This document shows, piece after piece, positions 9,525 to 14,218 of a stretch of 64,000 nucleotides of DNA. A model generated the notes under the pieces. That model made no database searches, was not told where the DNA came from, and was given only the letters and a program-made list of their open reading frames with translations. Both the position numbers and the translations under genes were made by a program. Position 1 is the first letter of the stretch; each line of letters starts with the position of its first letter. The stretch lies in the NCBI GenBank assembly GCA_041665485.1, contig JBAYIT010000001.1:8651-72650 (forward strand). The letters run 5' to 3'. This stretch comes from Candidatus Shapirobacteria bacterium (lineage in GTDB: Bacteria > Patescibacteriota > Microgenomatia > UBA12405).

Positions 9525-10115
9525 ATGCGACGAATTATATTTTCCTTGATATTATTGTCCCTTGGGGGGTTAATTCTTTTTTTGTCATTGGTAAGAGCCG
9601 GCTGGGAGGCAACAGTGATAAACAGAGATATTGGTGGTTTAAGGACAGAACCGATATTTTTTGAAGTGTTGGGGCCAGATGGAGGAGTTAACGAGAGATG
9701 CTACAAAACTCCTAACTCGGTAATATTGCCTGGTGGGCCAGCTTACCGACTAAAAGAATTGAGAGATTTCATTTGGTACAAATTAGCAAATAACCCCGTA
9801 GCCAAGTTTAGAATGGCACTGCTGATTGCCGACAAAAGAATAGGTGAGGCAATAAAGATGGAACAAGACGATAATTTTAGTGGGGATGATTTTGCAGTAG
9901 TAGCAAAAGAGGCGGTTGACTGGTTGTCAACAGCAAGCCGTTTAGCAAAAGACATTGAATCAAAAAATCAAATTAGTCAGGCCAGTTTAGCTTATCGCCA
10001 CGAAATAGAAGAAGCCAGAGTAAAATGGGGAAACAATGGTGTAGAATACCTCGAACTACTGAAAAAATTGAAAGCAATTGATGACCAAAATTTTGAAACG
10101 TCTAAAAATAACTAA
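9525..10115 (+). CDS. Hypothetical membrane-anchored protein
   Basis: N-terminal TM segment. No recognisable domain. Confidence 0.35.
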   Translation: MRRIIFSLILLSLGGLILFLSLVRAGWEATVINRDIGGLRTEPIFFEVLGPDGGVNERCYKTPNSVILPGGPAYRLKELRDFIWYKLANNPVAKFRMALLIADKRIGEAIKMEQDDNFSGDDFAVVAKEAVDWLSTASRLAKDIESKNQISQASLAYRHEIEEARVKWGNNGVEYLELLKKLKAIDDQNFETSKNN

Positions 10116-12204: not shown

Positions 12205-14218
12205 AATACTGATTGGATTGGGGAAGCCAATATTACTTGGAATAAAGGTAGTATTAAAACATTTTGGTTATGTCTTTTTGACGCTAATTTTGATGGTAAT
12301 GACGGGAGGTTTGGTTTGGGGTTGGCAAAGAGTAATTGCCGGAATGCCCAACATCGACAAAATTTATGAACCGCCGTCAATGACCTCAAAGATCACCGAT
12401 AGAAATGGACGAGTACTTTACAAATATTATGAAAAAGAAAACAGAAGCTGGGTAAACCTGGAAAAGATCCCCAAGGTAATGGTAGAAGCAACCTTGGCAA
12501 TTGAGGATAAAGATTTTTATAATCATCACGGAATCTCTTGGAGAGGAATAATAAAGGCAATTTGGCATAATTTTACGACGAGAGGCAATAATAATGGATT
12601 GTGGGGCGGTTCAACAATAACTCAACAATTGGCAAAAAATGTTTTCCTAAACGGTGAAAAAACATGGGTGAGAAAAGCCAGAGAGGCAATATTGGCAATA
12701 ATGTTGGAAAGAAAGTTAACTAAAGATGAAATTTTAGAAAGATATTTTAATCAAGTCCCCTATGGTGGAGAAATCTATGGGGTAGCAGAGGCGGCAAAAA
12801 AATTTTTTGACAAAGATATCAGTGAAATTAGCGTAGCCGAGGCAACGTTTTTGGCGGGATTGCCGGCAGCGCCAACAGCTTATTTACCACGAAAGGGAGA
12901 TTTGGAGTTAGGCAAAGAGAGACAAAAACAAGTATTGAATCAGATGGTAACGGCGGGCTATTTAACTGAGATGGAGGCAGACAAAATCAGCAGGGAAGAA
13001 CTAAAGATTATCGAACCAAGAATCGCGATTAAGGCGCCACACTTTGTTTTTTATATTAGGGACTATCTTAAGGACAAAATGGGGATTGAAAATATTGGCC
13101 GACAGGGGTTAACGGTCAAAACGACACTTGATCTTGATCAACAATTAATAGCAGAAAAGATTGTAAAAAATGAAGTGGAAAAGGTAAGGGGTTTGGGAAT
13201 TAGTAATGGAGCGGCACTAGTACTTGAGGTCAGGACAGGAAAAATACTGGCGATGGTGGGATCTAAAGATTATTTTGCTAACGATATTGATGGTAAGTTT
13301 AATGTGACAACGGCCCTAAGACAGCCGGGGAGCTCAATTAAACCGATCAACTATCTTCTCGCCATACAGAACGGAAAAACATTAATGGATATGATTGATG
13401 ACAGCCCGGTAACTTATTACGTTAAGGGCCAGAAACCATATAGCCCGCAAAATTATAATGGCAAATACATGGGAAGAGTGACTTTAAAAACAGCCCTGGC
13501 GTCTTCCTTAAATGTGCCGTCAGTAAAACTGCTGGCGGAAAATGGAGTGGAGGAAATGATTGATTTGGGGAGAAAAATGGGAATAACCAGCTGGGATCAA
13601 CCAAATCGATTTGGTTTATCATTGGCCTTAGGGAGCGGTGAAGTGAAAATGACCGAACTTTCCCAGGCATACAGTATCTTTGCCAATTTGGGGGAAAAAG
13701 CAGAAATTAATCCGATTGTTTTAATCGAAAATTACATGGGAGAAACGGTATACGAAAGAATAAACGAGACAAGAATGGTGGTAGAGCCAAAATATGCCTT
13801 TTTAATAAACCAAGCTTTGGCAGATAACGAAGCTAGAACACCGATTTTTGGAGCAAATTCTAAATTGAAAATAACGGGAAAGACGGTAGCAGTAAAAACC
13901 GGGACGACAAATAGTCTTCGAGACAATTGGTGTATTGGTTGGACACCGGATTTGTTGGTGGCAACTTGGGTGGGAAATAATGATAATCACCCGATGGGAT
14001 GGGTGGCTTCAGGAGTTAGCGGAGCAACGCCAATATGGTATGAAATCATGAGCCAAGCATTAGCAAAAAAAGGGAATATGGAATGGGAGCCACCAATGGA
14101 TGTTTATAAGGCTAGCGTCTGTGGAAAAGAAGAGTATTTTACCGACGGAAGGGAAATAAATATAAAATGCCCGATGTTAAAACCGACCGGTGAACCCCCA
14201 GTAAAGACGGTCAACTAA
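12188..14218 (+). CDS. mrcA: Penicillin-binding protein 1A, tandem paralog (copy 2)
   Basis: Same domain order and motifs as copy 1 ([26 protein letters not shown], KTGT). Overlaps the end of copy 1. Confidence 0.9.
   Translation: [676 protein letters not shown]

What the first reader, a model, noticed from the sequence alone, without database searches (positions are those of the whole stretch)
10078..14218. Tandem PBP1A paralogs carrying a near-identical ~90-nt tract (gene-conversion signature)
The two class-A PBP genes are diverged over most of their length at both protein and DNA level. However, positions 11081-11170 and 13260-13349 are nearly identical at the nucleotide level, with 52 consecutive identical nt (gatctaaagattattttgctaacgatattgatggtaagtttaatgtgacaac) and then only a few mismatches. 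Both tracts encode [31 protein letters not shown] around the transpeptidase SxxK serine. This indicates recent intergenic conversion over the active-site segment, which is unusual and may constrain both copies to the same catalytic-site sequence.
Basis: seen in the sequence. Interest (0 to 1): 0.55.

Follow-up and report, generated by a model that had tools for sequence, protein, structure and literature searches.

The report
Short gene-conversion patch between tandem PBP genes
Two neighbouring, anciently duplicated cell-wall synthase genes in an uncultured Shapirobacteria genome have copied about 50–90 bases from one to the other at their most conserved segment, which is a real but ordinary footprint of DNA repair with almost no effect on the proteins.

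Summary
Genes A (10081-12204) and B (12188-14218) are intact class-A PBPs, 47% aa and 56% nt identical. They share a 53-nt exact run (11080-11132 = 13259-13311) inside an 87-nt stretch with 3 mismatches, all synonymous.

The 34-residue protein identity is not the signal. That peptide is near-invariant in both paralog families across Microgenomates. The signal is at synonymous sites: 27/33 identical codons in the tract against 117/261 elsewhere (p≈4e-5).

Among 50 tandem pairs from other genomes, only this pair and its closest relative (L083) stand out. That excludes a clade-wide nucleotide constraint.

In a four-way comparison the tract groups paralogs by genome (8 informative sites to 1, bootstrap 99%). 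The rest of the gene groups orthologs (351 to 39). Tract dS is 0.17 (A-B) and 0.31 (sister pair), against saturation between the genomes. Each lineage therefore most likely had its own later conversion.

An independent assembly carries identical sequence, so this is not an artefact. The tract is the best identity island between the paralogs, which explains the location. The donor is probably A.

This is a known kind of event.

The parts
10081..12204 (+). Gene A: class-A (bifunctional) PBP, 707 aa from ATG 10081 (the ORF list starts it at TTG 10078). Probable donor of the tract.
   Evidence: Pfam Transgly 2.6e-60 and Transpeptidase 2.5e-20. Motifs EDANFYHHIG, GGSTLTQQ, RKVKE, SSIK, SLN and KTGT are present. 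Best solved relatives are PBP1A 4oon, 5u2g and 3udf, E 1e-72 to 2e-79. Identical to database protein P0121.
12188..14218 (+). Gene B: second class-A PBP, 676 aa, an ancient paralogue of A (47% aa identity). Probable recipient of the tract.
   Evidence: Pfam Transgly 2.9e-61 and Transpeptidase 6.4e-23. All catalytic motifs intact. Identical to P0001, which is found on two independent assemblies.
12188..12204 (+). 17-nt overlap of the stop of A with the start of B. The pair forms a tightly coupled tandem unit.
   Evidence: Coordinates. The same 17-nt overlap occurs in the sister locus L083, 2180-2196.
11065..11166 (+). Copy in A of the 34-codon segment with 100% aa identity ([34 protein letters not shown]). 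It includes the SxxK box (SSIK, 11152-11163).
   Evidence: 96/102 nt identical to 13244-13345, and all 6 differences are synonymous.
11080..11166 (+). Maximal conversion tract in A (87 nt). The minimal tract is the 53-nt exact run 11080-11132.
   Evidence: runs of 53, 11 and 18 nt. (paralogue-grouping synonymous sites span 11085-11157; flanks show the ortholog pattern at 11068 and from 11167). dS 0.17.
13244..13345 (+). Copy in B of the 34-codon identical segment, including SSIK.
13259..13345 (+). Maximal conversion tract in B (87 nt). The minimal tract is 13259-13311.
   Evidence: The peptide in B is about 10:1 more A-type than B-type, and only 1% of B-family members are that A-like.

Best explanation
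A short-patch, non-reciprocal homologous recombination event (ectopic or interlocus gene conversion) took place between two tandem, anciently duplicated class-A PBP genes of a Candidatus Shapirobacteria genome.

Shown:
- The two genes diverged long ago. The A/B pair is found across Microgenomates, and synonymous sites are saturated everywhere except in the tract.
- Within 11080-11166 / 13259-13345 the two copies are near-identical at synonymous sites.
- In that tract the paralogues of one genome group together against the paralogues of the closest relative, while the rest of the gene groups by orthology.
- The relative's own pair also has an elevated tract, with different shared codons.

Inferred:
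- A break or stalled fork in one copy was repaired using the other copy, 2,179 bp away on the same or a sister chromosome.
- Strand invasion could only be seeded where the paralogues retain long enough exact matches. Purifying selection on the strand-loop-helix segment leading to the catalytic serine keeps this the most identical island (about 73-80% nt, with exact runs of 15-29 nt in unconverted pairs).
- The heteroduplex could not extend into the roughly 55%-identical flanks, which gives a patch of only 53-87 nt.
- The same hotspot was hit independently, after the split, in the window lineage and in the L083 lineage.
- The donor was probably A and the recipient probably B.
- The protein consequence is minimal, at most one substitution at a naturally variable position per gene. 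The event is best seen as a neutral by-product of repair, not a mechanism that maintains the active site.
For: Synonymous excess: 27/33 against 117/261 identical codons, p=4e-5. A 53-nt exact run and a run of 17 identical codons, permutation p=3.7e-4. Sawyer-type test p=0.003.

Lineage specificity: of 50 distinct tandem pairs, the window (tract nt identity 0.94) and L083 (0.90) are the two top outliers. The others lie at 0.58-0.82 with codon identity near their own background.

Phylogenetic incongruence: tract informative sites are 8 paralogue-grouping, 1 ortholog-grouping, 0 cross. The rest of the gene gives 39/351/38 (p=8e-8). The result still holds when restricted to codons with the same residue in all four genes: 7/1/0 against 13/23/13, p=1.8e-3. 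Bootstrap support is 99%.

Tract differences: A-B 6 and A2-B2 10, against 14-18 between genomes.

dS in the tract: 0.17 (A-B) and 0.31 (A2-B2), against 1.0 to saturated for orthologues and saturated elsewhere.

Hotspot logic: the tract is the most identical 34-codon window in 24 of 48 other pairs, and it holds the longest exact run in 12 of 49.

Not an artefact: an independent JGI assembly from another sample (L002) has 1 mismatch in 13.3 kb and is identical over both tracts.

Direction: peptide log-likelihood ratio +2.28 for A-type. At 4 of 5 core sites that distinguish A2 from B2, the window carries the A2 state.
Against: The tract is short, with about 20-23 synonymous sites, so all tests rest on small counts.

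The A2-B2 signal is significant by codon identity (p=7.7e-4) but not by the run-based permutation (p=0.42).

Only one close relative exists in the collections searched, so the dating, the direction and the claim of two independent events depend on a single four-sequence comparison.

Position F (GK-F-NV) is the B-like state while N (FA-N-D) is the A-like state, so the direction is not clean.

No read-level data could be inspected. Whether this genome encodes RecA or MutS/MutL could not be checked; none was found in the 64-kb window.
Confidence: 0.85

Rival explanations
1. There was no conversion. Strong purifying selection on the peptide, together with codon bias (or selection for accurate codons at critical residues) and chance, produced the identical codons.
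For: The peptide is near-invariant in both families. Background identical-codon frequency among conserved residues is already 45%. The finding was picked post hoc from a scan.
Against: The same peptide in 48 other tandem pairs shows codon identity at each pair's own background, with exact runs of at most 35 nt. The KTGTT control region is at background. Codon usage predicts 13.6 identical codons out of 33, against 27 observed. The synonymous states shared by A and B differ from those shared by A2 and B2, although GC3 is almost equal (0.36-0.39). Outside the tract, paralogue-grouping and cross patterns are equally frequent (13 and 13), so there is no genome-specific codon effect.
Confidence: 0.05
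2. A nucleotide-level functional element is embedded in both genes, such as a structured RNA, an sRNA or antisense target, or an internal promoter or binding site. Selection on it preserves the DNA sequence.
For: Identity extends to synonymous positions in both copies.
Against: There is no Rfam match at E<=1 in 9500-14900. Folding energies of both copies and of the reverse strand are indistinguishable from shuffles (z = 0.0-0.9). The synonymous positions are not conserved between the window and its closest relative (14-18 differences per 102 nt) or in 48 other pairs, so no such element is conserved.
Confidence: 0.02
3. The identity is an assembly or consensus artefact: a collapse or chimera of the two paralogous copies in a metagenome assembly.
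For: The source is a metagenome contig (ENA ERZ27249449 k141_1025756), and read support could not be inspected.
Against: An independently assembled contig from a different sample and pipeline (JGI 3300037810) is identical over both tracts, with 1 mismatch in 13.3 kb elsewhere. The exact identity is only 53 nt, shorter than typical reads and shorter than the k implied by the k141 contig name, so it poses no assembly ambiguity. The copies keep 6 private differences within the 34 codons. The sister genome shows an analogous but different pattern and was itself recovered from two sources, JGI and Logan.
Confidence: 0.02
4. Conversion is real, but it was a single event in the common ancestor of the window lineage and L083, not independent events in each.
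For: Both genomes show the signal at the same place. The counts are small. A-A2 tract codon identity (0.62) is somewhat above background.
Against: Within-genome tract differences (6 and 10) are smaller than between-genome differences (14-18). Informative sites favour grouping by genome 8:1, with 99% bootstrap. Synonymous sites between the two genomes are saturated elsewhere (pS 0.70-0.77), so an ancestral homogenisation should have decayed to background in both. At least one post-split conversion is required in any case.
Confidence: 0.1

Closest known systems
tufA/tufB gene conversion in Salmonella enterica (Abdulkarim & Hughes 1996; Paulsson et al. 2017, PMC5485169)
   Same: Both are intrachromosomal, non-reciprocal transfers between two paralogous protein-coding genes. 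The accepted model is RecA-dependent repair of a break using the paralogue, with mismatch repair shortening the tracts.
   Different: The tuf copies are almost identical over the full gene, and tracts extend hundreds of nt, limited by the gene ends. Here the paralogues are about 56% identical, and the tract is confined to a 53-87 nt island of pre-existing similarity. The genes are adjacent, 2.2 kb apart in direct orientation, not distant. Nothing was tested experimentally here.
Long-lasting concerted evolution of prokaryotic paralogues (Wang & Chen 2018, PMC6053082)
   Same: Paralogues within a genome are more similar to each other than to their orthologues in another genome, recurrently in more than one lineage.
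   Different: That survey reports 26 genes with high identity across nearly the full length, and PBPs are not mentioned. Here only about 4% of the gene is homogenised, and the rest evolves independently.
Mosaic pbp genes of Streptococcus pneumoniae and Neisseria (interspecies recombination; from my own knowledge, not tested here)
   Same: Recombination blocks lie inside PBP transpeptidase regions and are recognised by local discordance in nucleotide similarity.
   Different: Those blocks come from orthologues of other species by transformation, are hundreds to thousands of nt long, change many residues and confer beta-lactam resistance. Here the donor is the neighbouring paralogue in the same genome, the patch is under 100 nt and it is essentially synonymous.
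Genome-wide ectopic gene conversions detected with GENECONV in bacterial multigene families (Morris & Drouin; Santoyo & Romero review; recalled from memory)
   Same: Short conversion tracts between paralogues, detected as runs of identity at polymorphic sites.
   Different: As far as I recall, those surveys mostly found events between fairly similar paralogues. A patch in paralogues with saturated synonymous divergence, and in a CPR/Patescibacteria genome, is at the extreme low-similarity end. My searches found no paper on gene conversion in CPR PBP genes.

Membership tests
Class-A (bifunctional) penicillin-binding protein, both genes | N-terminal GT51 glycosyltransferase domain with its catalytic motifs (EDxxFxxHxG, GxSTxTQQ, RKxxE) | tested here: met
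   Pfam PF00912 at E 2.6e-60 (A) and 2.9e-61 (B). The motifs are present in both.
Class-A (bifunctional) penicillin-binding protein, both genes | C-terminal acyl-serine transpeptidase domain with SxxK, SxN and KTG[TS] | tested here: met
   Pfam PF00905 at E 2.5e-20 (A) and 6.4e-23 (B). SSIK, SLN and KTGT are present in both. Closest solved chains are PBP1A/PBP1B.
Class-A (bifunctional) penicillin-binding protein, both genes | Glycan polymerisation and peptide cross-linking activity, and beta-lactam binding | not testable with these tools
   This requires biochemistry. Only motif integrity was shown.
Ectopic (interlocus) gene conversion | A localised block of elevated identity, including synonymous sites, bounded by diverged flanks | tested here: met
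   a 53-nt exact run; 27/33 against 117/261 identical codons (p=4e-5); permutation p=3.7e-4 and 0.003.
Ectopic (interlocus) gene conversion | Phylogenetic incongruence: paralogues group by genome inside the block and by orthology outside it | tested here: met
   8/1/0 against 39/351/38 informative sites; control on four-way conserved codons p=1.8e-3; bootstrap 99%.
Ectopic (interlocus) gene conversion | Not explained by sequence-level selection or codon bias common to the family | tested here: met
   48 other tandem pairs are at background in the same segment. There is no RNA family or structure signal.
Ectopic (interlocus) gene conversion | Non-reciprocal transfer with an identifiable donor and recipient | tested here: inconclusive
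   The peptide profile favours A-type about 10:1, and 4 of 5 discriminating synonymous sites are A-like, but one residue (F) is B-like.
Ectopic (interlocus) gene conversion | Dependence on homologous-recombination machinery (RecA etc.) in this organism | not testable with these tools
   Only the 64-kb window was available, and no recA was seen in it. A preprint title states that RecA serves as a taxonomic marker 'even in the CPR' (10.1101/2024.06.21.600076; not read).
Full-length concerted evolution (tuf-like, rRNA-like) | High paralogue identity across nearly the whole gene | tested here: not met
   Outside the tract identity is 43% aa and 54% nt, with pS 0.75, which is saturated.
Mosaic pbp gene by interspecies recombination | The block derives from a foreign orthologue and alters the transpeptidase sequence | tested here: not met
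   The best match of each tract is the neighbouring paralogue in the same genome. All 6 differences are synonymous. No close foreign source was seen among 240 homologues.

The most novel reading that the evidence does not exclude
The SxxK-box segment of the tandem aPBP pair may be a recurrent conversion hotspot throughout Shapirobacteria, and selection may exploit it. Conversion would then move active-site-proximal variants between the two synthases so that both transpeptidases stay matched to the same substrate or to the same beta-lactam-like pressure. That would be a modular form of concerted evolution in otherwise independent paralogues. Evidence for recurrence: a second, separate event in the sister lineage, and weak, individually non-significant tract signals in L102, L097/L098, L105 and the L106/L097 quartet.
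Probability: 0.07. Interest if true: 0.55.

Novelty: new member of a known kind. Interest (0 to 1): 0.28.

Why it matters
The main value is as a clean worked example.

First, it shows that homologous recombination operates within a CPR/Patescibacteria genome even between paralogues whose synonymous sites are saturated, provided purifying selection preserves an identity island of about 20-30 nt.

Second, it is a caution for phylogenetics and for paralogue/orthologue assignment of PBPs: the active-site segment can carry a different history from the rest of the gene.

Third, it warns against reading protein-level identity as a conversion signature when the segment is simply invariant across the family.

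It does not reveal a new system or change the understanding of PBP function.

Tried and rejected
- **Amino-acid identity as evidence.** Rejected after seeing the peptide conserved in 240 homologues.
- **Clade-wide concerted evolution of the tract.** Several quartets looked significant when all sites were used (L106/L097 p=2e-4). They lost significance when restricted to four-way conserved codons (p=0.06-0.7), so I report them only as hints.
- **Embedded RNA or regulatory element.** No Rfam hit and no folding signal.
- **Assembly artefact.** Countered by an independent assembly. Read-level checks were not possible.
- **Intermediate relatives (77-100% identity) for dating.** None appeared in two 5.8-billion-protein searches or in the genome and metagenome scans.
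- **Run-based permutation for the sister pair.** Not significant (p=0.42). The sister's signal rests on codon identity and site patterns.
- **Literature on PBP paralogue conversion or gene conversion in CPR.** Nothing specific found.
- **First profile-LLR script.** It had an indexing error and returned zeros. It was corrected.
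Full report
**What is there**

The interval holds two complete, co-oriented ORFs: A (TTG 10078 / ATG 10081 to 12204) and B (12188-14218). They overlap by 17 nt. Both have a GT51 transglycosylase domain and a transpeptidase domain (Pfam E 1e-60 and 1e-20 to 1e-23). Both keep every catalytic motif: EDxxFxxHxG, GGSTxTQQ, RKxxE, SSIK, SLN and KTGT. Their best solved relatives are PBP1A/PBP1B structures. The window is identical to part of a 411,674-bp ENA metagenome contig. NCBI names these proteins Candidatus Shapirobacteria, which belongs to Microgenomates/CPR.

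**Checking the observation**

A codon-aware alignment gives 47% aa and 56% nt identity over 647 codons. One 30-codon window reaches 100% aa and 96% nt identity. The exact run is 53 nt (11080-11132 = 13259-13311), followed by runs of 11 and 18 nt. In total 84 of 87 nt are identical up to 11166/13345. The shared peptide is 34 aa (11065-11166 / 13244-13345), and its six nucleotide differences are all synonymous.

Among residues conserved between A and B, 27 of 33 codons are identical inside the tract and 117 of 261 outside it (Fisher p=4e-5). Codon usage predicts 13.6 identical codons. The run of 17 identical codons has permutation p=3.7e-4. The KTGTT region is 80% aa identical but has 11/22 identical codons, so strong protein conservation alone does not produce the effect.

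**What the amino-acid identity means**

Searches with B and with A each returned thousands of homologues. The top 120 of each are clearly B-type (57-77% identity) or A-type (65-70% identity). In both sets the segment reads ILAMVGSxDYFxxxIDGK[YF][15 protein letters not shown], with only about six variable positions. The 34-residue identity is therefore mostly ancient purifying selection shared by both paralogue families. It is not evidence of conversion. Only the synonymous sites can be.

**Is the synonymous excess a general property of this segment?**

The genome and metagenome scans gave 160 loci, which yielded 50 distinct tandem A/B-like pairs. I applied the same test to each:

| Measure | Window pair | Other pairs (excluding L083) |
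|---|---|---|
| Tract nt identity | 0.94 | 0.58-0.82 |
| Tract aa identity | 34/34 | 19-31 of 34 |
| Longest exact run | 53 nt | 11-35 nt |
| Codon identity in tract | 27/33 | near each pair's own background |

The window pair is the extreme on every measure. The only comparable pair is L083, the closest relative. This excludes a clade-wide nucleotide-level constraint such as an RNA element or codon selection. Consistent with that, there is no Rfam match in 9500-14900, and the tract folds no better than shuffled sequence on either strand.

**Four-sequence test**

L083 is a 6.3-kb JGI contig, and its B protein was also found on a Logan assembly. It carries A2 (78% to A) and B2 (77% to B) with the same 17-nt overlap.

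Outside the tract, orthologues are 72-74% nt identical and paralogues 52-54%. Inside the tract the order reverses: A-B 96/102 and A2-B2 92/102, against 84-88/102 for all between-genome pairs. A and B share TCT, GCT, AAG, CAG and GGG-AGC-TCA where A2 and B2 share TCG, GCC, AAA, CAA and GGA-AGT-TCG.

| Region | Paralogue-grouping | Ortholog-grouping | Cross |
|---|---|---|---|
| Tract, all informative sites | 8 | 1 | 0 |
| Rest of gene, all informative sites | 39 | 351 | 38 |
| Tract, four-way conserved codons | 7 | 1 | 0 |
| Rest, four-way conserved codons | 13 | 23 | 13 |

The first comparison gives p=8e-8. Most 'rest' sites are nonsynonymous, so I repeated the test on codons whose residue is the same in all four genes; that gives p=1.8e-3. 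The equal paralogue-grouping and cross counts outside the tract show there is no genome-specific codon effect. Bootstrap support for ((A,B),(A2,B2)) in the tract is 99%. A Sawyer-type permutation places the longest A-B concordant fragment inside the tract (p=0.003).

**Timing and number of events**

Nei-Gojobori dS in the 87-nt tract is 0.17 for A-B and 0.31 for A2-B2. For orthologues in the same tract it is about 1.0 (A-A2) and saturated (B-B2). Everywhere else pS is 0.70-0.80.

Synonymous sites between the two genomes are saturated, so a homogenisation that predated their split should have decayed in both. Each genome therefore most likely had its own later event. At minimum, one post-split conversion is required. 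A2-B2 codon identity is 23/31 against 106/249 (p=7.7e-4), but the run-based test for that pair is not significant. I give the 'two independent events' reading about 0.7.

**Why here**

In 24 of 48 unconverted pairs, this segment is the single most nucleotide-identical 34-codon window (mean 0.73). In 12 of 49 it contains the longest exact match, 15-29 nt. From my own knowledge, that is about the length RecA-type recombination needs as a seed (the minimal efficient processing segment, roughly 20-30 bp in E. coli). The flanks, at about 55% identity, would block heteroduplex extension, which explains a patch of only 53-87 nt.

The accepted bacterial model is break repair templated by the paralogue, with mismatch repair trimming or aborting tracts (PMC5485169). 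That model fits, but nothing here tests the enzymology.

**Direction**

The shared peptide (…[10 protein letters not shown]…) scores +2.28 ln-units (about 10:1) for the A-family profile. Only 1% of B-family members are that A-like. B2 is also shifted toward A-type: -1.57, against a B-family median of -6.9. At 4 of the 5 core sites that distinguish A2 from B2, the window carries the A2 state. A as donor and B as recipient is therefore favoured. However, the F in GK-F-NV is the B-like state, so this remains tentative.

**Artefact check**

L002 is an independently assembled JGI contig from another sample. It differs from the window at 1 position in 13.3 kb and is identical over both tracts. The exact repeat is shorter than a read. 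I could not inspect reads.

**Comparison with what is known**

This is ectopic gene conversion and partial concerted evolution, a well-documented process:
- tufA/tufB (PMC5485169).
- rRNA operons (PMC6002687).
- 26 long-lasting cases surveyed in PMC6053082, none of them PBPs and all near full length.

It differs from mosaic pbp genes of pneumococci and Neisseria (my knowledge). The donor here is the adjacent paralogue rather than a foreign orthologue, the patch is under 100 nt, and it is essentially silent. My searches found no report of this in CPR or in PBP paralogues.

**Verdict**

- **Observation:** confirmed.
partly supported. The conversion is real. The suggestion that it constrains the catalytic site is not supported, because conservation is clade-wide and is the cause, not the consequence, of the hotspot.
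- **Novelty:** a new member of a known kind.
- **Interest:** modest (0.28). It is a tidy example of micro-conversion between very old paralogues in a CPR genome, with a probable second event at the same spot in the sister lineage.

Noticed in passing
window 44000-62700: A lower-GC block (0.35-0.37 against about 0.40) where the GC skew collapses. It carries a large serine recombinase (44998-46476, -), two N6_N4 DNA methylases (one fused to ParB_N; 50606-52604, -), a 1094-aa PLD+SNF2/helicase fusion (52991-56275, +) whose end overlaps the start of a 1093-aa Eco57I/MmeI-type methylase with a TaqI_C specificity domain (56272-59553, +), and a Schlafen/AlbA_2 protein (61605-62624). It looks like an integrated mobile or defence island.
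   Followed up: partly
window 12188-12204; L083 2180-2196; loci L011, L013, L031, L038, L044, L070, L072, L081: The 17-nt A/B overlap is conserved in the sister genome, and most Shapirobacteria pairs overlap or abut. In more distant Microgenomates the two PBP genes are separated by about 1.0-1.3 kb, presumably by an inserted gene.
   Followed up: no
window 11065-11166 vs 13244-13345: At five of the six synonymous differences inside the 34-codon segment, the A copy has A/T where the B copy has G/C (TTG/CTG, GCA/GCG, GTT/GTG, GCT/GCC, CCT/CCG). The sixth is C/G (ACC/ACG). B has slightly higher GC3 overall (0.386 against 0.355). My rough post hoc estimate is p about 0.02, and it is unexplained.
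   Followed up: no
L009, L010, L013 (pairs of PBP genes): These pairs have exact A/B runs of 32-35 nt outside the SxxK tract, centred 66 and 164 codons upstream of the tract start in L009 and L010 and 67 codons downstream of it in L013. They could be conversion patches at other conserved motifs in other lineages.
   Followed up: no
L102, L097/L098, L105; quartet L106/L097: There is a weak excess of identical codons in the tract (21/24, 18/24 and 18/23) with 26-29-nt runs over the RQPGSSIKP half. It is individually not significant after multiple testing or under the conserved-codon control.
   Followed up: partly
window 10420-10474 (A codons 115-133): A small secondary rise in paralogue-grouping sites in the window/L083 comparison (6-7, against 15-17 ortholog-grouping) around the GGSTxTQQ motif of the GT51 domain. 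It is not significant on its own.
   Followed up: no
(databases): A2 of L083 (78% to A) did not appear among the top hits of the A search. Absence of closer relatives is therefore not proven. Many GTDB records holding these clearly Microgenomates-type loci are titled 'uncultured Gammaproteobacteria/Pseudomonadales'.
   Followed up: no
window 9525-10115 and 14177-14863: The PBP pair is flanked upstream by a DUF5667 protein whose end overlaps the start of A. Downstream, on the opposite strand, lies a lineage-specific protein with no Pfam match (190 aa as called on the source contig; the listed ORF is 228 aa), whose 3' end overlaps the end of B. Both neighbours are conserved in the source and sister contigs.
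   Followed up: no
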